DNA of 64,000 bases from Gammaproteobacteria bacterium (GTDB lineage: Bacteria > Pseudomonadota > Gammaproteobacteria > Steroidobacterales > Rariloculaceae). The DNA lies in NCBI GenBank assembly GCA_036563665.1, contig DATCLY010000043.1, forward strand, positions 7,012 through 71,011, given 5' to 3'. The translations under genes and the position numbers were made by a program. The notes beneath the pieces are model-generated. The model made no database searches. It worked only from the letters and a program-made list of their open reading frames with translations, and was not told where the DNA came from. Shown here one piece after another: positions 13,301 through 32,290 of this stretch (position 1 is its first letter; every line of letters begins with the position of its first letter).

Positions 13301-13741
13301 AACTCGGCCGGGTGGATGCTCCAGCTCGACGCCGCGGCCGGCGAGAAGGTGCTCGCCGAAGCCAGGACGTTCAACAACCAGGTGTTCTTCACGACGTTCA
13401 CTCCGAGCGCGGGTCCCGGCGCAGACCCCTGCGCGCCCACGCTCGGCACGAGCCGCCTGTACGTCGTGAGCCTGTTCGACGCCGCCCCGGTCACGAACCT
13501 CGATGGCTCGGTCGATGATTCGAACCTGACCGAAACCGACCGGTACGTCGAGTTCGGCGGCTCGATCGCGGCCGAGGTCGTGTTCCTGTTCCCGTCGCCG
13601 GAGGATCCGCAGAACTGCACGGGCAGCGAATGCACTCCGCCGCCCGTGGCCTGCGTCGACCTGTTCTGCATGCCGACGGGCTTCGCGAACAACCCCGTGC
13701 GCACGTTCTGGCGTCAGGAGAGCGTCGACAGTTTCGACTGA
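10310..13741 (+). CDS. pilY1: Type IV pilus tip adhesin PilY1 (vWA plus beta-propeller)
   Basis: Signal peptide, RPNVLLILDDSISM (MIDAS), TPLSETLYEA, YIVLLTDGAP, GDPLHSQP, TNDGFLHAI, Ca-loop DFDGDGYADRMYAADMGGQIWRFD. Confidence 0.95.
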   Translation: MERMTAKVASLALGCLWSTVAMLPAVAEDIELFVGTTNFSNSARPNVLLILDDSISMDATLITQNNYDPTKTYSGPCSKDYVYWASGSSTTPPSCGSSNRFRLSDLKCKAALDAFAAPGGGLYRDMLASYDSGTQKRWESLASGRPVECKADWGIHGETTGSSAVYPRNGNTSALWTSGTTNRITWGQNPTNTHYWIYHGNWLNWYYSPGTTATRLQVVKDVANSLVASIDGINVGLMHFSQTSSSGPHGGRVAYAMEDVTTARSGMQSAINALTASKWTPLSETLYEAALYMLGRPVDHGLANPKSVPESHSGGTAPVYNSPIDYSCQKNYIVLLTDGAPTGDDDSDSDILALTDAEGTDFRSLANIPSGGVCDAESYAGIDLSPEPEGGDCLDDLAEFMFKGDMSPLPGKQNVVTHVVGFALEDRNGQVVRLPVLLDTAQRGGGKYYEAVDSASLFTTLTGIVTEILQTQSTFTSPAVSVNSFNRTQNLNDLYITLFEPSGTEHWPGNLKKFRLRPSDAAIVDATGKPAVDPATGFFIADSQSLWADTPDGQDIKDAGAAHRIPAARKVYTHLVGTDLTADENRVSLDNMDLDDGLLNTGDPDQPTREQVINFINGLDASDIDNDGDVTERRNQMGDPLHSQPASVVYGPTVDDAIIFVATNDGFLHAINAQDGVERWAFLPPEFLKQQVNLFLDQTTPIKTYGIDGNVRVQVLGNNDGVIDPDAGERVLLFFGMRRGEHVYYGLDVTNPDAPQFLWRHDESTLPGLGQTWSSPAPTRIEVDGSGQNEHHLVVVLGGGYEPDQDNSAASTDTVGNSIYIVDSINGTLLWHGSKDGRDADFDQSGKSMDYSIPADVKVVDFDGDGYADRMYAADMGGQIWRFDVYNGQSAANLVTGGVIAQLGAAPAASPALADVRRFYYSPDVALVSTSDVRFIHIGIGSGHRPHPLSKENADRFYALRDFNALRKLTQTEYNAITPITEDDLDIITGVNTTVANNSAGWMLQLDAAAGEKVLAEARTFNNQVFFTTFTPSAGPGADPCAPTLGTSRLYVVSLFDAAPVTNLDGSVDDSNLTETDRYVEFGGSIAAEVVFLFPSPEDPQNCTGSECTPPPVACVDLFCMPTGFANNPVRTFWRQESVDSFD

Positions 13742-13762
13742 TGACGCTCGACGACCAAGGAA

Positions 13763-14212
13763 ATGCCTGAGATGGTGGTCAGTATGGATATTGCCAACGT
13801 CTTCCGCGGCAACCGCCGCCGCATGGCAGGCGTCACGCTGCTCGAGCTCATGATCGTGGTGGTGGTGGTTTCGCTGCTCGCCACGATCGCCATCCCGAGT
13901 TACCGCCAGTACGCCATTCGCGCGCAGCGAACGGAGGCGAAGTCGGCGCTGCTCCAGCTCGCGGCCAATCAGGAGCGCTACTACACGAGCAACGGCAACA
14001 CGTTCGTGAACGACCTGGCGCGCATCAACATGCCGGCGACGACGGAGGGCAACCGGTACGCCCTGGCAGTCACCCATGCGGACACCACGTCGTTCACCGC
14101 GACGGCCACGGCCATCAACGGAATGACGGACGACGACGAATGTCAGGTGTTCCAGATCGATTCCGAGGGACGGCGCTCCGCCTCACCGGATCCGCGCGGC
14201 ACCTGCTGGTAG
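13763..14212 (+). CDS. pilE: Minor pilin PilE
   Basis: MAG|VTLLELMIVVVVVSLLATIAIPSYRQY, RTEAKSALL, QERYY, C-terminal Cys pair ending CW. Confidence 0.92.
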   Translation: MPEMVVSMDIANVFRGNRRRMAGVTLLELMIVVVVVSLLATIAIPSYRQYAIRAQRTEAKSALLQLAANQERYYTSNGNTFVNDLARINMPATTEGNRYALAVTHADTTSFTATATAINGMTDDDECQVFQIDSEGRRSASPDPRGTCW

Positions 14213-17960: not shown

Positions 17961-19207
17961 CGGACGCCGAGCGCGAGCTTCGCGAACGCCTGCGCCGCAT
18001 GAAGCTCGTCGCCACGGGGCTCCTCGTGGCCATGGCGGGGCTCTACGTCGTCACGAGCCTCGCGCTCGCGCGCTACCCGGCGCTCGGCTGGGTGCGCGCC
18101 TTCGCGGAGGCGGCCATGATCGGCGGGCTCGCGGACTGGTTCGCCGTCACGGCGCTGTTCCGCCGCCCGCTCGGGCTGCCGATCCCGCACACGGCCATCG
18201 TGCCCACGCGCAAGGACGAGATCGGGCGCGCGCTCGCCCGCTTCGTTCGCGACCATTTCCTCGTGCGCGAGGCCATCGAGCGCCGCCTGGCCCGCGTGGA
18301 CCTCGCGAGCCGCATCGGCGCGTGGCTCGATCAGGAGGCGACGGCCGCGCGGCTCGCGCGCGACACGAGCCGCGCGCTCGACTGGTCGATGCAGGCGGTG
18401 GACAGCGCAGAGCTGCGCACGGCCGTGAAGGACAGCCTGCGCGAGGCGCTCGACCAGGCGCCGCTGCACGTGGCGCTCGCCCTGCTCGTCGACGTGCTGC
18501 GCTCGGAGAATCACGCCCAGGCGCTCATCGACCAGCTCGTGCAGTTCGGGCGCGACCAGCTCGACGCGCACCGCGACGACATCCGCCGGCGCATCGGCGA
18601 GCGCAGCCCGTGGTGGCTGCCCAAGTTCGTGGACGAGCACATCTACGATCAGCTCGTGGGAGAGTTCGAGCGGATCCTGAACGAGATCGGCACCAACCCC
18701 GAGCACCCGGCGCGCGTCGGCCTAAACGAGCGGCTCGAAACCCTGCGGCGCGGCCTCGCGGAGGACCCGGCCCTCATCGAGAAAGCGCGCGCGCTCCAGC
18801 ACGAGTTCCTCGAGCACCCGACGGTGCACGCGTACGTGCGCGACCTCTGGGACCGCATCCGCGCGTACCTGCACGAGTCGTTCACGTCGCCGCAGTCCAC
18901 GCTCCGGACGGGGCTCGAGCGGGAGATCAGGAGCATCGGCCGGTCGATCGCCGCGGACCCCGAGGTGGGCGCGCGGCTCAACCACTGGCTCAAGGAAGGG
19001 CTGATCTATCTCGTCGAGAACTATCGCAACAGCCTGTCGGAGATCATCTCCGAGACCGTGGCGCACTGGGACCCGAAAGCCACCGCCGCCCGCGTGGAGC
19101 TGCACATCGGCAGCGACCTGCAGTACATCCGCGTGAACGGCACGCTCGTGGGCGGGCTCGTGGGCGTGCTGATCTACGCGGGCTCGCGCGCGCTCGCCCT
19201 CTCCTGA
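17957..19207 (+). CDS. DUF445 family membrane protein
   Basis: AEAAMIGGLADWFAVTALFRRP, IPHTAIVP and [20 protein letters not shown] 17957 overlaps the pyrF stop. Confidence 0.92.
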   Translation: MTDAERELRERLRRMKLVATGLLVAMAGLYVVTSLALARYPALGWVRAFAEAAMIGGLADWFAVTALFRRPLGLPIPHTAIVPTRKDEIGRALARFVRDHFLVREAIERRLARVDLASRIGAWLDQEATAARLARDTSRALDWSMQAVDSAELRTAVKDSLREALDQAPLHVALALLVDVLRSENHAQALIDQLVQFGRDQLDAHRDDIRRRIGERSPWWLPKFVDEHIYDQLVGEFERILNEIGTNPEHPARVGLNERLETLRRGLAEDPALIEKARALQHEFLEHPTVHAYVRDLWDRIRAYLHESFTSPQSTLRTGLEREIRSIGRSIAADPEVGARLNHWLKEGLIYLVENYRNSLSEIISETVAHWDPKATAARVELHIGSDLQYIRVNGTLVGGLVGVLIYAGSRALALS

Positions 19208-20880
19208 TCCTGCGCCGCGCGCGCCTTGAGCTCGCGCCGCAGCACCTTGCCCACGTTGCTCTTCGGCAGCTCCTCGATGAACTCGACGTAGCGCGGCACC
19301 TTGTATGGCGTGAGGTGCTCGCGGCAGTGCGCGAGCACGTCCTCGCGGGTGACGGTGGGGTCGGAGCGCACCACGAAGAGCTTCACGGCCTCGCCGGAGC
19401 CGCGGTCCGGCACGCCCACGGCCGCCGCCTCGACCACGCCCGGATGCCGCGCGACGACGTCCTCCACCTCGTTCGGATACACCTTGAAGCCCGAGACGAC
19501 GATGACGTCCTTCTTGCGGTCTTCGATGTAGAGGAATCCGGCCGGATCCATGCGCGCCAGGTCGCCGGTGCGCAGCCACCGCCCCGGGAAGAACACGGCC
19601 TCGGTCTCCTCCGGCCGGTTCCAGTAGCCCGCCATGACCTGCGGCCCGCGGACGCAGAGCTCGCCCACCTCGCCGAGCGGCAGGTGATTGCCCTCGTCGT
19701 CGCAGATCGCGACGTCGGTCGAGGGGAACGGCAGGCCGATCGAGCCGTTGAACTCCTTCAAATCCAGCGGATTGCCGGAGACGATGGGCGACGCCTCCGT
19801 GAGGCCGTAGCCCTGCGCGATCGGCACCCCGGTCACGCGCTGCCAGCGCTCGGCCACCTCGCGCTGCACGGCCATGCCGCCGCCCATGGCCACGCGCAAC
19901 GCGCTGAAGTCGAGCTCGGCGAAACCCGGCGTGCGCAGCAGCGCGTTGAACAGCGTGTTCACGCCCGTCATGAACGCGAAGCGCACCTTCGCGAGCTCGC
20001 GCACGAAGCCGCGCGTGTCGCGCGGGTCGGTGATCAGCAGGTTGTGCCCGCCGAGCTCCATGAAGCAGAACAAGTTCGCCGTGAGCGAGTAGACGTGGTA
20101 GAGCGGCAGCGGCGTCACCACGACCCCCGCGTCGTGCTCATAGAACGGCCGGGCCCATGCGGCCGCCTGGAGCGTGTTCGCGACCAGGTTGCGATGCGTG
20201 AGCATCGCGCCCTTCGAACGGCCCGTGGTGCCGCCCGTGTACTGCAGGAATGCGATGTCGCTGCCTCGCGACTCCACCGGCGTGAAGGCGCGCGCGGCGC
20301 CCTGGCGGAGCGCGTCGCGGTAGCGGATCGCCCCCGGCAGGCGCCATTCCGGCACGAGCCGCTTCACGTGCTTCACGGCGAGGTTCACGATCGCGCGCTT
20401 CGGGAACGGAAAGAGGTCGCCGACCTCCGTGACGATCACCGTCTCGACGGCCGTGCCCGCGAGGGCGTGCTCGACGGTGTGCGCGTAGTTCTCGAGCACC
20501 ACCACCGCCCGCGCCCCGCTGTCCGCGAGCTGCACCTGCAGCTCCGGCGCGGTGTAGAGGGGATTGGTGTTCACCACGATCATACCGGCCCGCAGCACGC
20601 CGAACACCGTCACGGGCGACTGCAGCAGGTTCGGCAGCATGACGGCCACGCGGTCGCCACGCTGGAGCCCGGGCAGCCCTTGCAGGAACGCGGCGAACGC
20701 GCGCGAGAGCCGGTCCACCTCCGCGAACGTGAGCGTCACGCCCATGTTGGTGAACGCCGGCCGGTCGGCGAAGCGCTCGAGGCTCGAGTCGATGAGCGCC
20801 GTGAGCGAAGGGTAGACGTCCGGGTCGATCTCGGCCGGGACGCCGGGCGGGTAGGCCGCGAGCCAGGGCTTGGCCGTCAT
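19174..20880 (-). CDS. fadD: Long-chain fatty acid-CoA ligase
   Basis: KPWLAAYPPGVP start, LQYTGGTTGRSKGAMLTH, QGYGLTEASP, WLRTGD and PKSNVGKVLRR. Confidence 0.95.
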   Translation of the reverse strand: MTAKPWLAAYPPGVPAEIDPDVYPSLTALIDSSLERFADRPAFTNMGVTLTFAEVDRLSRAFAAFLQGLPGLQRGDRVAVMLPNLLQSPVTVFGVLRAGMIVVNTNPLYTAPELQVQLADSGARAVVVLENYAHTVEHALAGTAVETVIVTEVGDLFPFPKRAIVNLAVKHVKRLVPEWRLPGAIRYRDALRQGAARAFTPVESRGSDIAFLQYTGGTTGRSKGAMLTHRNLVANTLQAAAWARPFYEHDAGVVVTPLPLYHVYSLTANLFCFMELGGHNLLITDPRDTRGFVRELAKVRFAFMTGVNTLFNALLRTPGFAELDFSALRVAMGGGMAVQREVAERWQRVTGVPIAQGYGLTEASPIVSGNPLDLKEFNGSIGLPFPSTDVAICDDEGNHLPLGEVGELCVRGPQVMAGYWNRPEETEAVFFPGRWLRTGDLARMDPAGFLYIEDRKKDVIVVSGFKVYPNEVEDVVARHPGVVEAAAVGVPDRGSGEAVKLFVVRSDPTVTREDVLAHCREHLTPYKVPRYVEFIEELPKSNVGKVLRRELKARAAQDQERASAREPA

Positions 20881-20890
20881 GCCGGAGGGC

Positions 20891-21505
20891 TCAGAGCAGC
20901 CCCTCGAGAACGCTCCACACGTTCTCGAGCATGCGCGGCTGGCCGGCCGCGTTCGGATGGATGCCGTCCGCCTGCATGAGGCTCGGGTCGAGCGCCACGC
21001 CTTCGAGCAGGAACGGCACGAGGGGCACGTCGTAGCGCTCCGCGAGCTCCGCGTAGACGTTGGCGAGGGCGGTGGTGTAGGCGCTGCCGTAGTTCGGCGG
21101 CAGCCGGATGCCGGCGAGCAGCACCATCGCGCCGTGGGCCTGGGCGAGCTCGATCATGCGCGCCAGGTTGTCGCGCAGCGTCTGCACGGGCAGGCCCCGG
21201 AGGCCGTCGTTGCCGCCGAGCTCGATGATCACCCACGCGGGCGCGTAGGTCTCGATGAGCTTCGGCAGACGCGCGAGGCCGCCGGCCGAGGTGTCGCCGG
21301 CGATGCTGGCGTTCACGACCTCATATTCGTACCCTTGCGTGCGCAGGCGCTCATCCAGCATCGCTACCCAGGATTGCTCCGCGGCCAGCCCGTAGCCGCT
21401 GCTCAGCGAGTCGCCTACCACGACGATCGTCGCCTCGGCCCGCGTGAGCGCGGGCGTGGAGATCAGTGCGGTCGCCGCCGCGGCCGCGAGGAAGAGTCGA
21501 CGCAT
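20891..21505 (-). CDS. tesA: Arylesterase / acyl-CoA thioesterase I (GDSL-SGNH)
   Basis: Signal peptide, VVGDSLSSGYG, NASIAGDT, ELGGNDGLRG and DGIHPN. ATG at 21505. Confidence 0.95.
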   Translation of the reverse strand: MRRLFLAAAAATALISTPALTRAEATIVVVGDSLSSGYGLAAEQSWVAMLDERLRTQGYEYEVVNASIAGDTSAGGLARLPKLIETYAPAWVIIELGGNDGLRGLPVQTLRDNLARMIELAQAHGAMVLLAGIRLPPNYGSAYTTALANVYAELAERYDVPLVPFLLEGVALDPSLMQADGIHPNAAGQPRMLENVWSVLEGLL

Positions 21506-22202
21506 GAGCACCCGAGAGGATTTGCTGCGAGCCGAGAGCTTGACGAAAAAGGTTACCAGCCCCGAAGGCGAGCTGACCATCCTCGACGACGTGAGCCTCG
21601 CCATCGCGCGGGGCGAGACCGCGGCCATCGTGGGGCCTTCGGGCGCGGGCAAGTCGACGCTGCTCGCGTTGCTCGCGGGCCTGGACGAGCCGTCGTCCGG
21701 GCGCGTGTGGCTGAACGGGGTGGAGCTCACGGCGCTCGACGAGGACGGGCGCGCGGCGCTGCGCAATCGCGAAGTGGGCTTCATCTTCCAGTCGTTCCAC
21801 CTGTTACCGTCGCTCACGGCGCTCGAGAACGTGCTGCTGCCGCTCGAGCTCGCCGGCGCCGCCCATGCGGCCGAGCGCGCGCGCCGGGCGCTCGCCGAGG
21901 TGGGCCTCGAGCACCGTCTCAAGCACTATCCGCGGCAGCTCTCCGGCGGAGAGAAGCAGCGGGTCGCCATCGCCCGCGCGTTCGTGACGGAGCCGTCGCT
22001 GCTGTTCGCGGACGAGCCTACGGGCAACTTGGACAACAAGACGGGCGCCCGGATTCTGAACCTGCTGTTCGACCTGAACGCCGCCGCCGGCACCACGCTC
22101 GTGCTCGTCACCCACGACCTCGACGCCGCCGCCCGCTGCAACCGCATCATCGAGCTCGCCGCCGGCCGCATCGCCTCCTCCACCGCCCCCGCGCCCGCGT
22201 AA
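21504..22202 (+). CDS. ybbA: YbbA-type ABC transporter ATP-binding protein
   Basis: GPSGAGKSTLL, VGFIFQSFHLLP, LSGGEKQRVAIARA and LFADEPTGNLD. Divergent and overlapping with tesA as in enterics. Confidence 0.9.
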   Translation: MSTREDLLRAESLTKKVTSPEGELTILDDVSLAIARGETAAIVGPSGAGKSTLLALLAGLDEPSSGRVWLNGVELTALDEDGRAALRNREVGFIFQSFHLLPSLTALENVLLPLELAGAAHAAERARRALAEVGLEHRLKHYPRQLSGGEKQRVAIARAFVTEPSLLFADEPTGNLDNKTGARILNLLFDLNAAAGTTLVLVTHDLDAAARCNRIIELAAGRIASSTAPAPA

Positions 22203-22896: not shown

Positions 22897-23871
22897 TCAG
22901 ACGACGCGGCGGAGGCGCTCGCCGCGGAGGTAGGCGGCGATGTTCTCGGTGACCTGGTCCAAAGCGCGCTGGCGCGCCTCCTTCGCCGCCCAGGCGATGT
23001 GGGGCGTCACGATGAGGTTCGGCAGCTCCGCCGCCGCGCGCAGCAACACGTCGTCGGGCGTCGGCGGCTCCGTCGGGAGCACGTCGATGCCGGCCCCGGC
23101 GAGGCGCCCTTCCCGCAGCGCTTCGACCAGCGCCTCGTTGTCGACCAGCGCCCCGCGGGCCGTGTTGATCAGCAGCGCGTCGCGCTTCATGCGGCCGAGC
23201 TCCGCCCGTCCGATCATGTGGTGCGTCGCCTCCGTCAGCGGGCAGTGGAGCGTCAGCACGTCCGCCTGCTCGAGCACCGTCTCGAACGGCACGCGGCCCG
23301 ACGGCACCTGGTCGGGCGCGAGCCCGCGGCGCGCGGCCACGGCCAGGCGCATGCCCAGCGACTCCCCGAGCCGCCCCACCGCCTGCCCGAGCGAGCCGTA
23401 GCCGATGATCCCGAGCGTCCGTCCCGCGAGTTCGCGGATCGGGTAGTCGAACAGCGCGAAGGAGCGGCTGCGGGTCCACTCGCCGCCCACGACCAGCGCG
23501 TGATACCGGCCGACGTGCTGCGTGAGCCCGAGCACCAGCGCGAACACGTGCTGCACCACCGAGGTGCTGCAGTAGTCCCGGATGTTGGCGACGGCCACGC
23601 CGCGCTCGCGGGCGACGGCGGTGGCCACGTTGTCCGTGCCCGTGGCCGACACGACGATGAGCTCGAGGTCCGGAGCCCCGGCGATGGCGTCGCCGCTGAT
23701 CGGCGCCTTGTTGGTGATGGCGATCTTGCAGTCGCGGATCCGCTCCGCCACCTCCGCGGGCGTCGAGTACGGGTAATACTCCGCATCGACCAGCGCATCG
23801 AGCTTGCCGGTATCGATCCCGGGCCCGAGCGTGGCGGCGTCCAAAAAGACGGTTTTCGGTCGGGTCGCCAT
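22897..23871 (-). CDS. hprA: D-glycerate / hydroxypyruvate reductase (D-2-hydroxyacid dehydrogenase)
   Basis: VFLDAATL, ITNKAPI, SATGTDNV, ELAGRTLGIIGYGSLG, LHCPLT, INTARGALVD and TPHIAW. ATG 23871 within the long ORF 22897..26805. Confidence 0.9.
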   Translation of the reverse strand: MATRPKTVFLDAATLGPGIDTGKLDALVDAEYYPYSTPAEVAERIRDCKIAITNKAPISGDAIAGAPDLELIVVSATGTDNVATAVARERGVAVANIRDYCSTSVVQHVFALVLGLTQHVGRYHALVVGGEWTRSRSFALFDYPIRELAGRTLGIIGYGSLGQAVGRLGESLGMRLAVAARRGLAPDQVPSGRVPFETVLEQADVLTLHCPLTEATHHMIGRAELGRMKRDALLINTARGALVDNEALVEALREGRLAGAGIDVLPTEPPTPDDVLLRAAAELPNLIVTPHIAWAAKEARQRALDQVTENIAAYLRGERLRRVV

Positions 23872-23903
23872 GGCGACCAAGCTTACACCACGGCGGCGCG
23901 CGC

Positions 23904-26639
23904 TCAGCCGGTGCTCTGCATCCCGTGCGCGATGCCGTTCACGCTCGCGAGCAGCGCCTCGAGCAGCGCGTCCGCGGGCCGGCCCGCGCGGCGCCAGCGC
24001 GCGAGCAGGTTCACTTGAAGAAAACTCATCGGATCGACGTAGGGATTGCGCAGCCTGATGGAGCGCGCGAGCGTGCGCGACTCCTCGAGCAGCTCGCTCT
24101 GGCCGGAGAGCTTGAGCACGAGCTCCACCGCGCGATCGTACTCGGCGCGGATCGCCGGGAAGAACCGCTCGTGCAGCGGCCCCGCGAGGCGCGAGTACTG
24201 CTCCGCCACGTCGAGGTCGGCCTTGGCGAGCGCGGTGGCGGCATCGGACACGAGCACGCGGAAGAAGTGCCAGCGCTGGAACATGTCGTGCAGAGCCTCC
24301 TCGCCGTAGCGCTCGATGCCGTGCGCGAGGCCCGATGCGAAGCCGAACCAGGCGGGCAGCAGGCAGCGCGTCTGCGTCCACGCGAAGGCCCACGCCACCG
24401 CGTGCAGCTCCTCGATGCTCGTCGCCTCTTCGCCCGCGCCGCGCCGTGAGGTCACGCCAAGCCGCTCGATCACGTCGATGGGCGTCGCCGCGCGGAAGTA
24501 GGCGAAGAAGTCGCTCGAGTCGTACACGAGCGCCTGATACGTCTCGCGGCTGCGCTCCGCCATCGCTTCCATGATCTCGAACCACCGGGCCTCGCCGTCG
24601 TGCTCGGACGCGGGAAGCCCCGTCACGAGGATCACGGAGGAGAGGGTCTGCTCGAGGCTGCGCAGCGCGATGCCGCGCAGGCCGTATTTCTCGTTGATGG
24701 TCTCGCCCGGCTCGGTCATCCGCAGCCGCCCCGCGACGGCGCCGCGCGGGGCGGCGAGCACGGCCTCGTGCAGCCGGCCGCCGCCGCGGCTCACGGTGCC
24801 GCCCCGGCCGTGGAACAGCGTGAGCTCCACGCCGAGCCGCCCGAGCGTGGCGACCAGCGCGCGCTGCGCCTGGTGCACGGTCCAACGGGCCGACATGAGG
24901 CCGCCGTCCTTGGCGCTGTCGGAGTAGCCGACCATCACGATCTGGCGATCGCCGCGCGAGCGCAGGTGTCGCCGATAACGCTCGTCGCGGACCAGCCGCT
25001 CCATGATCGTGGGCGCGTTGGCCAGGTCCTCCACCGTCTCGAAGAGCGGCGCGACGTCGAGCGCCACGTCGTCGCCGGGCCGGCCCAGGTGTCCCCAGTG
25101 CGCGAGCAGCAGCACCGACAGCACGTCGTCGGGGCCGTGCGTTCTGCCGACGATGTAGGGGCCGATCGAATCGGGGCCGTACTTGCGCCGGGCGTGAGCG
25201 ATGGCCTGGAACACGCCGAGCGTGCGGCGCGCCTCGGACGACAGCGTGCCGAGCGGCGACTCGCGGCGCTCGAGCGCCTCGTCGAGGCGCCGCGTGCGCT
25301 CCTCGCTGCCGAGCTCGAGCCAGCGCGCCTCCTGCAGCCCTTCGCCCACCACGCGCCGGTGCGCGAGCGCGTTCTGCTTGATGTCGAGCGTGGCCACGTG
25401 GAAGCCGAAGGTCTGCGCCCTGCGGAGCAGCCGCTGCACCGCGAACAGCCCCGCGTTGCGGCCCTTGTTGGCGCGCAAGCTGTCCGCGATGGCCTCGATG
25501 TCGGCGATGAACTCCTGCGGCGATTCGTACGGGAACGCGGCGTCGTCGTAGGTGGCCTTGAGCCGCGCGGCCACGAGCCGCAGGAAGACCCGATACGGCA
25601 TGTCGCGGTGGCGCGCCGGCACGGAGGCCGCGGCTTCGGGGAAGTGCCCGGCGTAGAGACGGCTGCGGCTCTTGATCTCCTCCGCCACACCGATCCGGCT
25701 CTCGCTCTGCGAGAGATCGCGCGCGAGGTAGTGGCACTCCTTGTAATAGAGGTCGAGGATCACGGCCCGGTGCCGCGCGAGCGTCTCGCGGATGCTCTTC
25801 GCGGTGACGTCGGGGTCGCCGTCGAGGTCGCCGCCCACCCACGAGCAGAAGCGCACCACCGTCGGCACGCGAATCCGGCCCGCGTGCTCGGGGAACACGG
25901 CCGCGAGTGCGCTCTCGAGGCTCTCGTAGAACGCCGGGATCACGCGATAGACCACTTCCGTGAGGAAGAACAGCACCTGCTCGGCCTCGTCGCGCAGCCG
26001 CGCCCCGTGCGCCTTGTGCTCCGCCGTCTGCCAGGCGGTGGTCATCTCCATGCGGATGCGGCCGAGCGTCGACTCGAGCTCCTGCGGCGTCAGGTAGGGG
26101 TCGAGCATGTCCACGAGGTGCCTGGCGATCCGCTGCTGCTTGCGGAGCAGCGTGCGACGCGTGACGTCCGTCGGATGCGCCGTGAAGACGGGCTCCACGC
26201 AGATGCGCCCCACCACGCGCTCGATCTCGTCCGCGTCCACCCCCGCGGCCTTGAGCCGGCTCAGGATGTCGACGAAACCGAAGGGCTGCGGCGCCTTCGC
26301 GTCGCGCAGGTACTCCCGGCGCCGCCGGATGCGGTGCACCTTCTCCGCCAGGTTGACCACCTGGAAGTAGGTGGAGAAGGCGCGGATGAGCTCGCGGGCC
26401 GTGCTCGGCGCGAGCGCTCCGAGCACCTCGGCGAGCTTGCCGTGGGCCGCGGGGTCCCCTTCGCGCCGGGCGATGGCGGCGCGCCGGGCGGCCTCCACGA
26501 GGTCGAAGAGCGCCTCGCCGCCTTGCTCGCGCACGAGCTCCCCCACGAGCTCGCCCAGGCGATGCACGTCCTCGCGCAGCGCGCGATCTTTCTCGGCGAA
26601 GAAGAGGTTGGCGCGGGCCGGCGGGGTAGGAGTGGCCAT
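23904..26639 (-). CDS. ppc: Phosphoenolpyruvate carboxylase family protein with divergent active-site motifs
   Basis: VFTAHPT, APLFET, MVGYSDSAKDGG, FHGRGGTVSRGGG and RNPYVDP are intact. GGDLDGDP, TEPGE, LHAVAW and the C-terminal QSTG deviate from consensus. Confidence 0.92.
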   Translation of the reverse strand: MATPTPPARANLFFAEKDRALREDVHRLGELVGELVREQGGEALFDLVEAARRAAIARREGDPAAHGKLAEVLGALAPSTARELIRAFSTYFQVVNLAEKVHRIRRRREYLRDAKAPQPFGFVDILSRLKAAGVDADEIERVVGRICVEPVFTAHPTDVTRRTLLRKQQRIARHLVDMLDPYLTPQELESTLGRIRMEMTTAWQTAEHKAHGARLRDEAEQVLFFLTEVVYRVIPAFYESLESALAAVFPEHAGRIRVPTVVRFCSWVGGDLDGDPDVTAKSIRETLARHRAVILDLYYKECHYLARDLSQSESRIGVAEEIKSRSRLYAGHFPEAAASVPARHRDMPYRVFLRLVAARLKATYDDAAFPYESPQEFIADIEAIADSLRANKGRNAGLFAVQRLLRRAQTFGFHVATLDIKQNALAHRRVVGEGLQEARWLELGSEERTRRLDEALERRESPLGTLSSEARRTLGVFQAIAHARRKYGPDSIGPYIVGRTHGPDDVLSVLLLAHWGHLGRPGDDVALDVAPLFETVEDLANAPTIMERLVRDERYRRHLRSRGDRQIVMVGYSDSAKDGGLMSARWTVHQAQRALVATLGRLGVELTLFHGRGGTVSRGGGRLHEAVLAAPRGAVAGRLRMTEPGETINEKYGLRGIALRSLEQTLSSVILVTGLPASEHDGEARWFEIMEAMAERSRETYQALVYDSSDFFAYFRAATPIDVIERLGVTSRRGAGEEATSIEELHAVAWAFAWTQTRCLLPAWFGFASGLAHGIERYGEEALHDMFQRWHFFRVLVSDAATALAKADLDVAEQYSRLAGPLHERFFPAIRAEYDRAVELVLKLSGQSELLEESRTLARSIRLRNPYVDPMSFLQVNLLARWRRAGRPADALLEALLASVNGIAHGMQSTG

Positions 26640-26680
26640 CGGAGGCTCCGGGGCGGAATTCTACCCCAGCGTCCGCGCCA

Positions 26681-28552
26681 CTACCGGTAAGCGCGCGCCT
26701 GCAGCTCGAACAGCCGCGCGTAACGGCCGCCGCGCGCCATGAGCTCGTCGTGCGTGCCCTGCTCGACGATGCGGCCCTGATCGAGCACCACGATGCAATC
26801 GGCATGGCGCACGGTCGAGAAGCGGTGCGAGATCAGGATCGAGATCTTGCCGCGCGTGAGCTCGCGAAAGTGCTCGAAGAGCTCGGCTTCCGTCTCGGCG
26901 TCGAGCGACGCCGTGGGCTCGTCGAGCACGAGGATCTCCGCGCCGTCGCGCATGAACGCGCGGGCCAGCGCGATGCGCTGCCACTGGCCGCCGGAGAGCT
27001 CCTGACCGTCCTCGAACCAGCGGCCGAGCTGCGTGTGATAGCCCTGCGGCAGCCGCTCGATGAACTCCGCCGCGCGGCCCTTCTCCGCGGCCTCCGCCCA
27101 GCGCCGTTCGTCGTCGAACGCGGCCACGTCGCCCGCGCCGATGTTCTCGCCGACGGCGAACTGATAACGGTTGAAGTCCTGGAAGATCACGGCGTACCGC
27201 CGCTTGAGCGCCGCCGGGTCCCACTCCGCGAGGTCGCGGCCCTGGTAGCGAACGGTGCCCCGGTCCGGCCGGTAGAGGCCGGCGAGGAGCTTCACGAGCG
27301 TGGTCTTGCCCGAGCCGTTCAGGCCCACGAGCGCCAGGCTCCCGCCCGGCGGAATCGTGAGCGTGACGTCCCGGATCGCGGGGGTCTCCGCGCCCGGATA
27401 GGTGAACGTCACGCCCTCGATCTCGAGCCCGGCCGACGGATCCGGGCCGCTCGTCGCCGTGCCCTTCGGCACGAGCGAGGGCTGCTCGAGGTACTCGTAG
27501 AGATTCGACAGATACAGGTTGTCCTCGTACATGCCGCCGATGGCGCTCAGCATGGCGGACACGGACGTCTGGCCCTGCTTGAACACCAGCAGATACATCG
27601 TCATCTGGCCGAGCGTGATGACGCCCTGGATCGTGGCCACGGCGATCCACGCATACGCGCCGTAGAAGGCCGCGTTGCTCACGAGGCCGAGCGCGAACCC
27701 CCACGTGTCGCGTCGGATGGTGAGCCGCCGCTCCTCCGCGTAGAGGCGGCGGAAGATGGCCTTGTAGCGGTCGAGCAGGCGCGGCCCGAGCTCGAAGAGC
27801 TGCACCTCCTTGGCGTGGTCCTCGCGCGCGAGCACCACCTCGAGGTAGGCGAGCCGGCGCCGCTCCGGCGAGCGCCACTTGAACACGCGGAAGCGCTCGC
27901 CCGAGAAACGCGTCTCCGCGAGGAACGCGGGCAGGCCGGCGACCACCAGGATCACCACGGCCCAGGCGGAGAACTGCAGCAGCAGCCCCGCGTAGCTCAC
28001 GAGCGCGATGCCGTTGCGCGCGAGCGTGAACGTGCGCGTCACGAGCGACAGCGGCCGGGCCGACGCCTCCTGCCGCGCCCGCGTGAGCTTGTCGTAGAAC
28101 TCCGAGTCTTCGAACTGGGCGAAGTCGAGCGTGAGCGCCTTCTCGAGGATCAAGATGTGCACGCGCTGCGACAGCAGCACGCGCAGCAGCGACTGGCAGA
28201 AGTCGATGCCGCGCTCGGCGCCCGCGAGCCCGGCGACGAGCACCCCTTCTGCGCCGACGAGCAGCAGGACGCCCGCGTAGTCCGGCGTGCCGCCTGCGGA
28301 GAAGGCGCCGATGGCGGCGACCACGGCGTCGACGATGAGCTGGCCCACGTAGGCGATGCCCGCCGGCGCGAGACCCGCGGCGATCGTCAGCAGCGCGAGC
28401 GACACGGTGAGCCCGCGGTGCGTGGACCAGACGAGCGCCACCGCCCGGCGGCTGTAACGCCAGAAGCCGAGGTAGCCTTCGAGAGGAGGCGGCTGCTCGG
28501 CGCGGGACGCGGGCGCGCGCCGTCCCGCCAGCTCCGCGTGACGGACGCTCAC
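26681..28552 (-). CDS. ABC exporter (fused TMD-NBD, HlyB/MsbA-like)
   Basis: Multiple TM segments, FEDSEFYDKLTRA, GLNGSGKTT, LSGGQWQRIALARA, LVLDEPTASLD and ILISHRFSTV. Confidence 0.93.
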   Translation of the reverse strand: MSVRHAELAGRRAPASRAEQPPPLEGYLGFWRYSRRAVALVWSTHRGLTVSLALLTIAAGLAPAGIAYVGQLIVDAVVAAIGAFSAGGTPDYAGVLLLVGAEGVLVAGLAGAERGIDFCQSLLRVLLSQRVHILILEKALTLDFAQFEDSEFYDKLTRARQEASARPLSLVTRTFTLARNGIALVSYAGLLLQFSAWAVVILVVAGLPAFLAETRFSGERFRVFKWRSPERRRLAYLEVVLAREDHAKEVQLFELGPRLLDRYKAIFRRLYAEERRLTIRRDTWGFALGLVSNAAFYGAYAWIAVATIQGVITLGQMTMYLLVFKQGQTSVSAMLSAIGGMYEDNLYLSNLYEYLEQPSLVPKGTATSGPDPSAGLEIEGVTFTYPGAETPAIRDVTLTIPPGGSLALVGLNGSGKTTLVKLLAGLYRPDRGTVRYQGRDLAEWDPAALKRRYAVIFQDFNRYQFAVGENIGAGDVAAFDDERRWAEAAEKGRAAEFIERLPQGYHTQLGRWFEDGQELSGGQWQRIALARAFMRDGAEILVLDEPTASLDAETEAELFEHFRELTRGKISILISHRFSTVRHADCIVVLDQGRIVEQGTHDELMARGGRYARLFELQARAYR

Positions 28553-29289: not shown

Positions 29290-30675
29290 ATGCAGACAGC
29301 GTTCGACATCACCGCCGACCTGGATACGCCGGTGTCGGCGTACCTGAAGCTCGCGCCGTTCGAGCCGCGTTTCCTGCTCGAGAGCGTGGAAAGCGGCGAG
29401 CGCCTCGCGCGCTACTCCTTCCTGGGGCTCGGCGACGGCCTGCGGCTCGAGCTCTCGCCCGAGGGCGCGGTGCTTGACGGCCGGCGGCTGTCGGCGCCCA
29501 CGACCGCGGCCGAATGGCGCGCGCTCATGCGCGACGCGCTCGCGCGCTGCCCGGAGCTCACGCCGTCCATCCCCGGCCTGCCGTTCACGGGGGGCCTCGT
29601 CGGCGCCACCGGGTACGACGTCGTGCGCTACTTCGAGCGGCTGCCGGCGCACCGCGCGCCGCTGCCGGGGCTGCCGCTCGGCACCTACGTGGCCCCGCGG
29701 TCGCTGCTCGTGTTCGACCATCTGACCCGACGCCTCGCGCTGCTGCACCAGGGGCCCGAGAGCGAGCGGCAGGCGCTGCGGGCCGAGGTCGTGCGGGCTC
29801 TGCGGGGCGGCATCGACAACGGCGGCGCGCGCAGGGGCTTCTCGCCCGCGGAGGCGAGCGCCACGGAGGAGGAGTTCGTCGGCGCCGTGGTCCGGGCCCA
29901 GGACCACATCCGCGCCGGCGACATCTACCAGATCGTGCTGTCCGTGCGCTTCAAGGGCCGCACCGACCTCGACGCGTTCCAGATCTATCGGGGCCTGCGG
30001 CTGCTGAACCCGTCGCCGTACATGTTCTTTCTCGACCTCGGGCAGCTCAAGATCGCGGGCTCCTCGCCCGAGGCGCTCGTGCGGCTCGCGGGCCGCGAAG
30101 CTTCCCTGCGGCCCATCGCGGGCACGCGCCCCCGCGGCGCCACGGACGAGCTCGATCAGGCGCTCGAGCGCGAGCTGCTCGCGGATCCGAAGGAGAACGC
30201 GGAGCACGTCATGCTCGTGGACCTGGCCCGCAACGACCTGGGCCGCGTGGCCCGCTCGGGCTCGGTGCACGTGGACCCCTACCGGCGCATCGAGCGCTAC
30301 AGCCACGTGATGCACATCGTGAGCGGCGTCAAAGGCGAGCTCGACGCCGGCAAGGACGCCTTCGACCTGTTCGCGGCCGCGTTCCCGGCCGGGACGCTCG
30401 TGGGCGCGCCGAAGGTGCGCGCCATGGAGCTCATCGCGGATCTCGAGCCCGTGGGCCGCGGTCTCTACGGCGGCACCGTGGGCTACTTCGCGAAGAACGG
30501 CAACATGGACCAGGCCATCACCATTCGCACGCTGGTGCTCGACGGCGACGAGTACAGCTTCCAGGCCGGCGCCGGCATCGTGGCCGACAGCGTGCCGAAG
30601 CGGGAATACCAAGAAGTGCTGGCGAAGAGCGCCATCCTGCGTCACGCGCTCGAGCTCGCGGAGGAAGGACTGTGA
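29290..30675 (+). CDS. trpE: Anthranilate synthase component I
   Basis: [63 protein letters not shown] and [15 protein letters not shown]. Confidence 0.97.
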
Positions 30676-31259
30676 GCGCCCGTGTGCTGCTGATCGACAA
30701 CTACGATTCTTTCACCTACAACCTCGTGCAGGCGTTCCTCGTGCTCGACGCCGAGGTGCTCGTCTACCGCAACGACGCGCTCACGCCGCAGCAGGCGCTC
30801 GAGCTCGATCCCTCGCACGTCGTGATCTCTCCGGGGCCCGGCCGCCCGGAGGACGCCGGCGTGTCGCTCGCGATCATCGAGACGTTCGCGGGCCGGAAAC
30901 CCCTTCTGGGCGTCTGCCTCGGCCACCAGGCCATCGTGCACCACTTCGGCGGTCGCATCGTGTCGGCCGCGGCGCTCATGCACGGCAAGACGTCGCTCGT
31001 GCAGCACGACGGGGCGACGGTGTTCCGCGGGCTCACGAATCCGTTCGAGGCCGGGCGCTACCACTCGCTCGCCGCGGACCGCACCAACGTGCCGCCCGCG
31101 CTCGAGGTGTCGGCCCGCACGGCCGACGGCGAGATCATGGCCGTGCGCCACCGCGAGCTTCCGGTCGAGGGCGTGCAGTTCCACCCGGAGAGCGTGCTGA
31201 CGCCGGAAGGGCCGCGGCTGCTCGAGAATTTCCTCTACCCGGAACGGGCATCGTCATGA
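30672..31259 (+). CDS. trpG: Anthranilate synthase component II (glutamine amidotransferase)
   Basis: [38 protein letters not shown] and [11 protein letters not shown] 30672 overlaps the trpE stop. Confidence 0.96.
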
Positions 31260-32290
31260 GCGTGAAGGGCAACGAGCTCCTCGAGCGGCTGCTCGCGGGG
31301 CAGGACCTGGACGAGGCGACCGCGGCGGCGCTGCTGCGCGCGCTCGCGAGCGCCGAGATCGAGCCCGCGCTCGCGGGCGGCCTGCTGGTGGCGCTCCGGC
31401 GCAAGGGCGAGAGCGCGGCCGAGATCCGCGGCTTCGCGCAGGCGATGCGCGAGCTCGCCCGGCGCCCCGACATTCCCGCGGACGGGCCGTACGTGGACGT
31501 GGTCGGCACGGGCGGGGACCGCTCCGGCAGCCTGAACCTGTCCACGGGCGCCGCGTTGCTCGCCGCCGCCTGCGGCGCGCGCGTGGTGAAGCACGGCAAC
31601 CGCTCGGTCTCGAGCCGCTGCGGCAGCGCCGACGTGCTGCAGGCGCTCGGCCTGCCCGTGCCGCTCGAGGAGCAGGGCGCAGGGCGCTGCCTCGAAGCGC
31701 TCGGGTTCACGTTCCTGTTCGCGCCGCACTACCACCCCGCGATGAAGCACATCGCGCCCGTGCGGGCGGCGCTCGGCGTGCGCACGGTGTTCAACATCCT
31801 GGGGCCGCTCGCGAATCCCGCCTCGCCGCCGTTCCACGTGATCGGCGCCTACAGCGACGCCGTCGCGGCCCTCATGGCGGAGACACTGTCGGGCATGGCG
31901 TGCACGCGCGCGTTCGTGATCCACGGCGCGGACGGCTGGGACGAGGCGACGCCGATGGGACCGTTCGTCTGCTACGAGGTGACACCGGGCCGGGTCACGC
32001 GCACGGTGCGCGACCCGCGCGATTACGGCATCGAGCGTTGCAACGGCGACGGGCTCGTGGGCGGCGACGCCGCCGAGAACGCGCGGCGGCTGCGGGCCGC
32101 CCTCGAAGGCGGCGACACCGCGGCCCACCGCGACGCGCTCGCGCTCGGGGCCGCCCTCGCGCTCGAGGTGACCGGGCTCGTGCCGGACACCGCGGCCGGC
32201 GTCGCCTGCGCGCGCGAGGCGATCGCGGACGGCCGCGCCGCGCGGCTGCTCGAGCGGCTCGACGAGTTCGCCCGCCGGGAAGCGGCATGA
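31256..32290 (+). CDS. trpD: Anthranilate phosphoribosyltransferase
   Basis: [36 protein letters not shown] and [13 protein letters not shown]. Confidence 0.97.

What the first reader, a model, noticed from the sequence alone, without database searches (positions are those of the whole stretch)
23904..26639. Full-length PEP carboxylase with eroded PEP-binding motifs: pseudoenzyme or new activity
Seen (codons checked): GGDLDGDP for GGDRDGNP, TEPGE for TEQGE, LHAVAW for LRAIPW, TSRRG for GSRP, DIKQN for D(I/V)RQE, and C-terminal QSTG for (R/Q)NTG. H138, E506, D543, K546, R581, R587, K773 and R832 equivalents (E. coli numbering) are intact, with no frameshifts or stops over 911 aa. Established: R396, R699 and R713 bind the PEP phosphate/analogue and N881 binds the inhibitor aspartate. 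Caveat: from memory Xanthomonadales Ppc already has GGDMDGNP, so the first change alone is not diagnostic, but R713H and Q-to-P are. Inference: a purifying-selected paralogue that keeps the metal site and fold but has lost or changed substrate. It could be a regulatory or scaffold subunit of a second Ppc, or act on another substrate linked to the adjacent hydroxypyruvate reductase.
Basis: partly seen in the sequence, partly recalled or inferred. Interest (0 to 1): 0.7.

Follow-up and report, generated by a model that had tools for sequence, protein, structure and literature searches.

The report
Native PEP carboxylase losing its active site
This soil gammaproteobacterium keeps its inherited PEP carboxylase gene intact but with several substrate-binding and lid residues replaced, and it also carries a fully canonical copy acquired from another phylum, so this looks like an enzyme caught while it is being replaced.

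Summary
Window 23904-26639 (minus strand) is an intact 911-aa PEPC-fold protein. It carries R396K, R713H, Q613P, N256D, N881S and a KRR-to-AGE active-site lid. H138, E506, D543, K546, R581, R587, R699, K773 and R832 are kept. Identical contigs in four independent metagenome studies rule out assembly error.

The interpretation needs correcting. This gene is the vertically inherited, syntenic ppc orthologue of a Steroidobacterales-like lineage, not a duplicate. The extra copy is the canonical one, on contig C46 beside a broken integron. It is Gemmatimonadota-like and shared only with the sister genome G022.

The erosion is not private to this genome. Of the 121 nearest homologues, 84 have a non-canonical lid and correlated loss of otherwise invariant residues. 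The 37 with a canonical lid keep every one of them.

In G000 and G022 the native copy has 3.5-4.8 times more amino-acid change than congeners at equal synonymous divergence. dN/dS is about 0.33, against 0.05-0.09. That indicates relaxed but persisting selection.

My best reading is a catalytically compromised native Ppc whose anaplerotic role has passed to the acquired copy. A still-working isozyme or a new activity cannot be excluded without an assay. The adjacent 2-hydroxyacid dehydrogenase is ancestral synteny, not a functional clue.

The parts
23904..26639 (-). Native ppc orthologue: a 911-aa PEPC-fold protein with an eroded PEP-binding site and lid (P0001).
   Evidence: ORF and translation. 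PF00311 831 bits and NF000584 837 bits against a cut-off of 815. GC3 0.95, as in neighbouring genes. AF2 model pLDDT 86.7; TM 0.84-0.88 to 1JQN and plant PEPCs.
26646..26649 (-). Shine-Dalgarno GGAG, 6 nt before the ATG at 26639.
   Evidence: Read directly from the sequence.
25377..25379 (-). Codon AAG = K421, the equivalent of E. coli R396 (PEP phosphate binding). This is the R396K change.
   Evidence: It is R in 120/120 nearest homologues and in 120/120 homologues of the canonical copy.
24390..24458 (-). Active-site lid region (E. coli 695-717), reading GVTSRRGAGEEATSIEELHAVAW. K702/R703/R704 become A/G/E, R713 becomes H (codon 24402-24404), and P716 becomes A.
   Evidence: The role and conservation of the lid are described in PMC8637149. 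The model has low pLDDT at residues 730-736.
24708..24710 (-). Codon CCG = P644, the equivalent of Q613 in the TEQGE motif (Q613P).
   Evidence: Q is present in 120/120 canonical-set sequences. The same Q613P change occurs independently in G027.
25815..25826 (-). The GGD-L-DG-D-P loop. R253 becomes L (the clade norm is M) and N256 becomes D.
   Evidence: The model has low pLDDT at residues 270-275.
23913..23918 (-). C-terminal QS of MQSTG. N881S removes the inhibitor-aspartate ligand. Q880 is normal for this clade.
22897..23871 (-). D-2-hydroxyacid dehydrogenase gene (324 aa), starting 33 bp downstream of ppc. It is hidden inside a 1302-aa open frame in the ORF list.
   Evidence: GC3 frame plot and translation. 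NCBIfam PRK06487 382 bits, below its cut-off of 448. The adjacency to ppc is ancestral.
26681..28552 (-). ABC exporter (MsbA-like permease/ATPase fusion) directly upstream on the same strand.
   Evidence: The same neighbour is present in G021.

Best explanation
The window gene is the lineage's own, vertically inherited PEP carboxylase gene, at its ancestral locus (trp operon - ABC exporter - ppc - 2-hydroxyacid dehydrogenase - GDSL lipase - acyl-CoA synthetase).

In the genus to which this genome belongs, the catalytic lid loop and a correlated set of otherwise invariant residues had already been remodelled. The common ancestor of this genome (G000) and its sister G022 then acquired a fully canonical, Gemmatimonadota-like ppc by horizontal transfer. 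That copy now lies beside a broken integron on contig C46.

With canonical PEP carboxylation supplied by the acquired copy, constraint on the native copy weakened. On the G000 branch it lost two of the three PEP-phosphate arginines (R396K, R713H). It also lost N256, Q613, E141, S475 and M476.

The protein still folds as a PEPC. It keeps the metal site, H138 and the glycine-rich loop, and it is still under some purifying selection. So it is most likely a catalytically compromised PEPC with poor PEP binding and no functional lid. It persists for a residual or secondary role and is not a dead gene.

Shown here: orthology, the foreign origin of the canonical copy, the substitutions and their reality, the fold, and the raised dN/dS. 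Inferred: loss of efficient PEP carboxylation, and the causal order of events.
For: Orthology:
- ppc followed by the dehydrogenase is syntenic in G017, G022, G023, G024, G034 and G019.
- The full trp-ABC-ppc-GDSL-AMP-binding synteny is present in G021.
- The gene nests inside the order's ppc tree.

Second copy:
- G000:C46:9812-12472 scores 1040 bits and has all motifs canonical.
- Its homologues below about 66% identity are Gemmatimonadota.
- It is only 40% identical to the native copy and 90% identical to the G022 copy.
- C46 is a genuine contig of this genome. Its tetranucleotide distance ranks 38 of 70, and a neighbouring gene is 66-71% identical to genes in congeners.
- A frameshifted intI and low-GC cassettes lie next to it.
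- G000 and G022 are sisters with 100/99 support.

Erosion:
- The window protein deviates at 14 of 152 columns that are invariant in nine canonical-looking PEPCs.
- Eight of those positions are invariant in 120/120 homologues of the canonical copy; in the 37 canonical-lid relatives the seven tabulated there are near-invariant (R703 36/37, V770 34/37).
- A published screen uses H138, R396, R587, R703 and R713 as PEPC verification residues (PMC13147460). This protein fails three of the five.
- The lid loop is described as critical and conserved (PMC8637149).

Relaxed selection:
- The G000-G022 native pair has dN 0.163 at dS 0.50 (ratio 0.33).
- GC3-matched congeneric pairs at dS 0.38-0.49 have dN 0.019-0.046 (ratio 0.05-0.09).
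- The canonical pair has a ratio of 0.18.
- Parsimony branch ratios are 0.48 (G000) and 0.39 (G022), against 0.03-0.21 elsewhere.

Still maintained:
- Intact ORF, Shine-Dalgarno sequence and GC3 of 0.95.
- The protein branch is not longer than in congeners.
- The sequence is identical in four studies.
Against: - No assay exists. K for R396 and H for R713 keep a potential positive charge. R699, H138, R581, R587, K620 and both metal ligands are intact, so appreciable activity is possible.
- The lid was already non-canonical in most of the genus, where this is the only PEPC-family gene and no pyruvate carboxylase or archaeal-type PEPC is present. This suggests that lid-less forms may still work, or that these bacteria do not need PEPC.
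- The protein-level branch length of G000 is not elevated.
- The dN/dS estimates are crude (NG86 and parsimony) in a gene with 95% GC3.
- Only two genomes carry the acquired copy, so the link between acquisition and relaxation rests on one evolutionary event.
- Four of the seven private changes are the same amino-acid replacement seen in independent lineages. That fits adaptation as well as decay.
Confidence: 0.5

Rival explanations
1. It is still a working PEP carboxylase. G000 and G022 then simply have two isozymes with different regulation. N881S and the new lid would make the native one insensitive to aspartate/malate inhibition. K396 and H746 would still bind the PEP phosphate.
For: - H138, E506, D543, K546, R581, R587, K620 and R699 are all kept.
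- The substitutions are semi-conservative.
- R713H recurs in 9 of 120 relatives.
- NF000584 is still passed.
- Most congeners have only a lid-modified copy, and no pyruvate carboxylase or archaeal-type PEPC. Lid-modified forms may therefore carry the anaplerotic load.
That is a lead only.
Against: - R396, R703, R713, Q613 and N256 are invariant in 120/120 homologues of the canonical copy and in all 37 canonical-lid relatives bar one R703G.
- The KRR lid triplet is replaced by AGE.
- dN/dS is raised 3.5- to 6.5-fold over the close congeneric pairs.
- Within the same genus H138 itself is replaced (by L, Q, D or N) in about 16% of sequences. So the clade as a whole does not behave like a constrained carboxylase.
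Confidence: 0.27
2. It has a new function: a PEPC-fold enzyme with changed substrate or chemistry. Examples are bicarbonate-dependent or plain PEP hydrolysis, another enol-phosphate or 2-oxo acid, or oxaloacetate decarboxylation. This activity would be shared with the other lid-remodelled members of the clade.
For: - The metal site and hydrophobic pocket (W248, L504, M538) are kept.
- In 61 relatives the lid is replaced by a new conserved motif (SKSERAEH) with fixed K546R and G878A, under strong purifying selection (dN/dS 0.05-0.09). This holds even where H138 is L.
- All seven G000-private changes fall on sites also hit in three independent eroded lineages (P about 5e-4). Four of them are identical replacements: R396K, Q613P, S475G and M476R.
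Against: - The window protein does not carry the conserved SER-type motif.
- Its lid, and those of G022 and G017, are all different from one another. That looks unconstrained, not retooled.
- dN/dS is raised, not lowered.
- No conserved new gene neighbour exists. The dehydrogenase adjacency is ancestral.
- No candidate reaction is indicated by any tool.
Confidence: 0.16
3. It is a non-catalytic regulatory or scaffold subunit that forms hetero-oligomers with the acquired canonical Ppc. Plant class-2 PEPC complexes of bacterial-type and plant-type subunits are the analogy.
For: Two divergent PEPCs coexist in G000 and G022. The fold is fully retained. The plant precedent is recalled from my own knowledge.
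Against: - The two copies are only 40% identical, come from different phyla and lie on different contigs.
- About 20 congeners with eroded copies have no partner.
- Selection is relaxed, not newly intensified.
Confidence: 0.05
4. It is an artefact. Either the substitutions are sequencing or assembly errors, or the second ppc sits on a mis-binned contig.
For: The genome is a 95-contig metagenome-assembled genome. The closest database relative of the window protein is only 76% identical.
Against: - Contigs from four independent studies match the gene with 0-1 differences, none at the key codons.
- C46 fits the genome in GC content and tetranucleotides and carries a gene 66-71% identical to genes in congeners.
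- The sister genome G022 and a third MAG hold the same canonical copy at 90-92% identity.
Confidence: 0.02

Closest known systems
Bacterial/plant-type phosphoenolpyruvate carboxylase (Ppc, EC 4.1.1.31; Pfam PF00311, NCBIfam NF000584; E. coli 1JQN/1FIY, maize 1JQO)
   Same: Full-length collinear homologue at 34-35% identity to E. coli Ppc. The fold matches (TM 0.84-0.88). The metal ligands E506 and D543, H138, R581 and R587 in the glycine-rich loop, K620, R699, K773 and R832 are all kept. The gene sits at the ancestral ppc locus of its order.
   Different: R396K, R713H, Q613P, N256D and E141D. The lid K702/R703/R704 reads A/G/E. N881S is present. dN/dS is raised. The genome has a separate canonical Ppc.
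Xenologous gene displacement: a native enzyme gene replaced by a horizontally acquired functional equivalent
   Same: The native orthologue and a foreign, canonical copy coexist. The foreign copy is more conserved between sister genomes (90% against 76% identity). The native copy shows relaxed selection and loss of invariant catalytic residues.
   Different: Displacement is incomplete. The native gene is still intact, uses native codon bias and has dN/dS below 1. Erosion of the lid predates the acquisition and is genus-wide.
Plant bacterial-type PEPC (BTPC) subunits in class-2 PEPC hetero-oligomers (recalled from my own knowledge)
   Same: A divergent PEPC coexists with a standard one in the same organism. 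A regulatory role was proposed for the divergent copy.
   Different: Plant BTPC keeps all catalytic residues and is active. Here catalytic and binding residues are replaced. No interaction evidence exists, and most relatives lack a partner.
Other divergent PEPC-fold lineages with rebuilt lids noted earlier in this scan (alphaproteobacterial and aminotransferase-fused branches)
   Same: The PEPC fold and metal site are kept, and the lid loop is rewritten.
   Different: Those are deep, old branches with far lower identity to canonical PEPC. This one is a shallow, recent derivative: it is 65-76% identical to fully canonical orthologues, and intermediate states are visible.

Membership tests
PEP carboxylase (PF00311 / NF000584, EC 4.1.1.31) | Full-length match to the family models above their curated cut-offs | tested here: met
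   PF00311 scores 831 bits over positions 1-919 of 919. NF000584 scores 837.4 bits against a cut-off of 815, a narrow pass. The genome's canonical copy scores 1040 bits.
PEP carboxylase (PF00311 / NF000584, EC 4.1.1.31) | PEPC fold (all-helical shell around a beta-barrel) | tested here: met
   The AF2 model has pLDDT 86.7 and pTM 0.88. The top PDB match is 1JQN (TM 0.84/0.88), followed by plant PEPCs at 0.85-0.88.
PEP carboxylase (PF00311 / NF000584, EC 4.1.1.31) | Metal ligands E506 and D543, and catalytic H138 | tested here: met
   The motifs PLFET, GYSDSAK and TAHPTD are present. The neighbouring E141 is changed to D.
PEP carboxylase (PF00311 / NF000584, EC 4.1.1.31) | Glycine-rich loop FHGRGGxxGRGG with R581 and R587 | tested here: met
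   The loop reads FHGRGGTVSRGG, so both arginines and G588/G589 are kept.
PEP carboxylase (PF00311 / NF000584, EC 4.1.1.31) | PEP-phosphate arginines R396, R699 and R713 | tested here: not met
   R396 is K and R713 is H; only R699 is kept. R396 and R713 are invariant in 157/157 reference sequences. Both are used as PEPC verification residues in PMC13147460.
PEP carboxylase (PF00311 / NF000584, EC 4.1.1.31) | Conserved active-site lid with the basic triplet K702/R703/R704 | tested here: not met
   The triplet reads A/G/E (TSRRGAGEEATS). R703 is present in 120/120 and 36/37 reference sequences. The importance of the lid is described in PMC8637149.
PEP carboxylase (PF00311 / NF000584, EC 4.1.1.31) | Aspartate/malate inhibitor site K773, R832 and N881 | tested here: not met
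PEP carboxylase (PF00311 / NF000584, EC 4.1.1.31) | Catalyses HCO3-dependent carboxylation of PEP to oxaloacetate | not testable with these tools
   This needs an enzyme assay or complementation.
Xenologous displacement in progress | The eroded copy is the vertical orthologue (synteny and phylogeny) | tested here: met
Xenologous displacement in progress | The canonical copy is of foreign origin and lies in the same genome | tested here: met
   Its nearest relatives outside the genus are Gemmatimonadota. It is 40% identical to the native copy. The contig is native by composition and by a neighbouring gene. An integron lies adjacent.
Xenologous displacement in progress | Relaxed selection on the native copy relative to lineages without the xenologue | tested here: met
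   dN/dS is 0.33 against 0.05-0.09 at matched dS and GC3. Branch ratios are 0.39-0.48 against 0.03-0.21. The methods are crude and the comparison rests on a single event.
Pseudoenzyme | Loss of catalysis while the protein is retained under selection | tested here: inconclusive
   Binding and lid residues are lost and dN/dS is below 1. However, the catalytic H138 and the metal site are kept, and activity has not been measured.
Heteromeric PEPC complex (plant class-2-like) | The divergent subunit always co-occurs with a canonical partner | tested here: not met
   Only G000, G022 and G013 out of 23 congeners have a second PF00311 gene.

The most novel reading that the evidence does not exclude
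PEPC has been repeatedly converted into a lid-less PEPC-fold protein with a different, still unknown activity in a widespread group of soil Steroidobacterales-like gammaproteobacteria. There were at least five lid changes among the 121 nearest homologues.

Supporting observations:
- 61 sequences share a new conserved lid motif (SKSERAEH) with fixed K546R and G878A, and none retains N881.
- About a quarter of those 61 lack the catalytic His138.
- They nevertheless evolve at dN/dS 0.03-0.09 and are the only PEPC-family gene in their genomes.

Under this reading the window protein would be a second, independent trajectory toward the same state. It shows the identical replacements R396K, Q613P, S475G and M476R seen in three other lineages.
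Probability: 0.17. Interest if true: 0.8.

Novelty: new variant of a known kind. Interest (0 to 1): 0.55.

Why it matters
PEPC is treated as a textbook, uniformly conserved anaplerotic enzyme. Databases label all of these proteins 'phosphoenolpyruvate carboxylase'.

This lineage offers a graded natural series, all at one syntenic locus:
- fully canonical orthologues;
- lid-remodelled forms that are the sole PEPC-family gene in their genome;
- His138-less forms;
- this copy, which has lost PEP-binding arginines beside an acquired replacement.

The series makes three things testable. It shows which 'invariant' PEPC residues travel together. It allows a test of whether lid-less PEPCs still carboxylate PEP. 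It shows how an essential-type enzyme is displaced by a xenologue.

There is also a practical consequence. Metabolic reconstructions of these abundant soil bacteria may wrongly credit them with PEPC activity.

Tried and rejected
- RNA evidence: no public RNA run holds the gene, so expression is untested.
- Literature: searches for the residue numbers and for 'pseudoenzyme' with PEPC found only a residue checklist (PMC13147460) and a lid description (PMC8637149). Nothing describes such variants.
- The search for related loci with the single protein returned only four distant loci. They served only to name the wider group (MAGs labelled Steroidobacteraceae and Chromatiales).
- A phylogenetically independent test of lid state against core-residue loss was underpowered. 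It gave 4-5 independent pairs and a sign test of p=0.5, although the direction was consistent.
- NG86 dS is saturated beyond the genus (pS 0.8), so no dN/dS is given at family level.
- The count of deviations at 97%-conserved columns (15 against a median of 2) is biased. The window protein and P0002 form a small sister group to the bulk of the alignment, so I did not rely on it.
- 'Overall acceleration of the protein' was rejected. The ML branch lengths of G000 and G022 are like those of congeners. The relaxation shows only when scaled to synonymous change.
- I looked for a link between erosion and pyruvate carboxylase. G027 has one, but G023, G038 and the whole genus lack a full-length one. 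No archaeal-type PEPC is present anywhere. No simple replacement rule emerges.
- The frameshifted pieces of ppc in G002, G008, G010, G012, G013, G019 and G020 were set aside as likely long-read indel errors. Those assemblies have few contigs and many breaks.
- A functional link to the dehydrogenase was rejected as ancestral synteny.
Full report
**What is at the coordinates**

The open frame 23904-26639 lies on the minus strand. It encodes 911 residues without stops.
- It matches Pfam PF00311 end to end (831 bits).
- It passes the NCBIfam PEPC equivalog only narrowly, at 837 bits against a cut-off of 815.
- Its GC3 is 0.95, like its neighbours.
- A GGAG Shine-Dalgarno sequence lies 6 nt before the ATG.
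- An AlphaFold model built with 64 homologues is confident (pLDDT 86.7, pTM 0.88).
- Low confidence occurs only at the N-terminus and at three known mobile loops: 270-275, 618-620 and 730-736.
- The model superposes on E. coli PEPC 1JQN and on plant PEPCs with TM 0.84-0.88.

Aligned with E. coli Ppc (fetched; alignments), the protein shows these changes:
- GGDLDGDP: R253L and N256D.
- DIKQN: R396K and E398N.
- TEPGE: Q613P.
- TSRRG: R699 kept, P700R.
- LHAVAW: R713H and P716A.
- MQSTG: N881S.
- Also TAHPTD (E141D), S475G and M476R.
- The basic lid triplet K702/R703/R704 is replaced by A/G/E.

H138, E506, D543, K546, R581, R587, K620, K773 and R832 are intact.

A recent genome survey uses H138, R396, R587, R703 and R713 as the residues that verify a bacterial-type PEPC (PMC13147460). 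This protein fails three of the five. The maize loop N755-R773 corresponds to E. coli residues 695-713. It is described as the active-site lid, with a sequence highly conserved in bacterial and plant PEPCs (PMC8637149).

**The substitutions are real**

The gene occurs at near-identity in at least 20 public metagenome runs from seven or more studies. I laid contigs from four studies (soil and mangrove) onto the gene.
- One contig of 2819 bp and one of 2515 bp match with zero differences.
- The few variant positions reported (24676, 25212, 25811-2, 26357, 26431) do not touch any key codon.
- No RNA run holds the gene.

**It is the native orthologue, not a duplicate**

I searched 40 related genomes.
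- Most have a single PEPC-family gene, and that gene is the counterpart of the window gene at 46-76% identity.
- Only G000, G022 and G013 (same genus) have a second copy.
- One order-level genome, G032, has only a distant type.

The gene order is conserved.
- A D-2-hydroxyacid dehydrogenase lies at 22897-23871 on the minus strand, found by GC3 framing and translation.
- The same dehydrogenase sits immediately downstream of ppc in G017, G022, G023, G024, G034 and G019.
- It lies within 1-3 kb in G025, G027 and G035.
- In G021 the whole neighbourhood is kept: trpEGDCFBA, ABC exporter, ppc, GDSL lipase and AMP-binding enzyme (window annotation).

G024, G025 and G035 have fully canonical motifs, so the dehydrogenase adjacency says nothing about the variant.

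Named relatives include MAGs labelled Steroidobacteraceae and Chromatiales.

**The canonical copy is the newcomer**

G000:C46:9812-12472 encodes an 886-aa Ppc that scores 1040 bits, with every motif canonical.
- It is 40% identical to the native copy and 47% identical to E. coli Ppc.
- It is 90% identical to the second copy of G022 and 92% identical to one other gammaproteobacterial MAG protein.
- Its remaining homologues, at 60-66% identity, are annotated Gemmatimonadota.

Contig C46 is not mis-binned.
- Its GC content (0.695) and tetranucleotide profile are typical of the genome, ranking 38 of 70 contigs by distance.
- A permease gene 12 kb away has 66-71% identical orthologues in five congeners.

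Directly upstream of this ppc lies an integron integrase split by a frameshift. It is followed by about 3.5 kb of low-GC cassettes at 54-62% GC.

In the maximum-likelihood tree G000 and G022 are sisters with 100/99 support. One acquisition in their common ancestor therefore suffices.

**The erosion is a clade phenomenon with a sharp dichotomy**

Order-level orthologues G024, G025, G026, G029, G033, G035 and G036 are canonical everywhere except GGDMDGNP.

The 121 nearest homologues, all 65-76% identical to the window protein, fall into three groups.

1. Thirty-seven have a canonical lid.
   - All 37 keep H138, N256, R396, K546, G583, G588, G589, Q613, R699, R713, P716, N881 and T882.
2. Sixty-one have a new, conserved 'SKSERAEH' lid.
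   - K546R and G878A are fixed in 61/61.
   - N881 is retained in 0/61.
   - H138 is replaced in 16/61 and R713 in 14/61.
3. Twenty-three, including the window protein, have idiosyncratic lids.
   - The lids of G000, G022 and G017 are all different from one another.

Further points on this dichotomy:
- A tree built without the lid and C-terminal columns places the canonical forms basally. It needs at least five changes of lid state.
- There are too few independent contrasts for a formal test.
- The same positions are invariant in 120/120 homologues of the canonical copy.
- Three further order-level genomes (G023, G027, G038) carry independently and heavily eroded sole copies on long branches.

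**What is special about this copy**

I took 152 columns that are invariant in nine canonical-looking PEPCs.
- Genus members deviate at 9-16 of them. The window protein deviates at 14.
- Seven of its deviations are private within the genus: E141D, N256D, R396K, S475G, M476R, Q613P and R713H.
- All seven fall on positions also changed in at least one of G023, G027 or G038. The hypergeometric P is 5e-4, or 8e-5 in a restricted universe.
- Four are the identical replacement: R396K in G038, Q613P and S475G in G027, and M476R in G023.

So a defined module of 'invariant' residues is released together, or is re-selected together.

**Selection**

| Comparison | dN | dS | dN/dS |
|---|---|---|---|
| Close congeneric pairs with only the native gene (range) | 0.019-0.046 | 0.38-0.49 | 0.05-0.09 |
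| G000-G022, native copy | 0.163 | 0.50 | 0.33 |
| G000-G022, canonical copy | 0.054 | 0.30 | 0.18 |

- The close congeneric pairs include the His138-less pair G003-G016.
- GC3 is comparable across these pairs.
- A parsimony count gives branch ratios of 0.48 for G000 and 0.39 for G022, against 0.03-0.21 on other branches.
- Protein branch lengths of G000 and G022 are not longer than in congeners. The relaxation is visible only relative to the synonymous clock.
- The ratio stays well below 1.
- These estimators are crude, and the contrast rests on a single acquisition event.

**Physiological context**

No genome of the genus, including G000, has a full-length pyruvate carboxylase. G026, G027, G031 and G032 do have one. 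No archaeal-type PEPC exists in any of the 41 genomes.

For most congeners the lid-remodelled protein is therefore the only recognisable C3-carboxylating anaplerotic candidate that I checked. This cuts against calling the whole clade inactive. It remains unexplained, especially for the His138-less members.

**Reading**

The best-supported account is xenologous displacement in progress.
- An already lid-modified native Ppc lost further PEP-binding residues under weakened constraint.
- This happened after a canonical Gemmatimonadota-like ppc arrived.
- The native gene is nevertheless still maintained.

I put this at about 0.5. The alternatives are:
- a working isozyme with altered regulation, about 0.27;
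- a new activity shared with the other lid-less forms, about 0.16;
- a regulatory subunit, about 0.05;
- an artefact, about 0.02.

Earlier notes of this scan describe other, much deeper PEPC-fold branches with rebuilt lids. I took them as context only.

Noticed in passing
G000 contig C46:12718-17400 (outside the window; locus L001 covers part of it): An integron lies directly upstream of the acquired canonical ppc. Its IntI-type integrase is split by a frameshift into two overlapping frames (13224-13925 and 12718-13356, minus strand). About 3.5 kb of low-GC (54-62%) cassette-like ORFs follow on the plus strand, including a DUF3800-like and a glyoxalase/VOC-like ORF.
   Followed up: partly
Relatives G003 (L008), G016 (L010), G011 (L014); proteins P0018, P0027, P0030, P0040, P0054, P0056, P0015-17, P0029: The catalytic His138 of PEPC is replaced by L, N, Q or D in about 16% of the clade. 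Yet the G003-G016 pair evolves at dN/dS 0.05. These genomes have no second PEPC, no pyruvate carboxylase and no archaeal-type PEPC. What these proteins do is unexplained.
   Followed up: partly
Relatives G023 (L017), G027 (L028), G038 (L021): Three independent, heavily eroded sole PEPC-family genes sit on long branches. G023 reads TSMSTR/FSARRW, G027 reads GADLKGNP/CHERGG/TEPGE, and G038 reads SAHPTA/DLKQS/IDQGE. Only G027 has a full-length pyruvate carboxylase.
   Followed up: partly
G013:C6:153690-156347 (L034): A third kind of second ppc occurs in one congener. It is a 907-aa protein with canonical motifs apart from a C-terminal LRNSG. It is only about 35-39% identical to the native copy, the Gemmatimonadota-like copy and E. 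coli Ppc.
   Followed up: no
window 22897-26805 (minus strand): The ORF lister reports a 1302-aa open frame that overlaps ppc out of frame. Only its last 324 codons (22897-23871) are a real gene, the 2-hydroxyacid dehydrogenase. In this 71% GC genome long spurious frames hide real short genes.
   Followed up: yes
window 29290-32290 (plus strand) and 19174-21922 (minus strand): trpE, trpG and trpD are divergent from the ABC-ppc unit. An AMP-binding acyl-CoA synthetase-like gene and a GDSL lipase lie downstream. The same arrangement is present in G021.
   Followed up: yes
Genus genomes G002, G008, G010, G012, G019, G020: In these few-contig assemblies the ppc orthologue is broken into 3-6 pieces, with stops or frame changes. 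This is probably long-read indel error, not pseudogenisation, but I did not check it.
   Followed up: no
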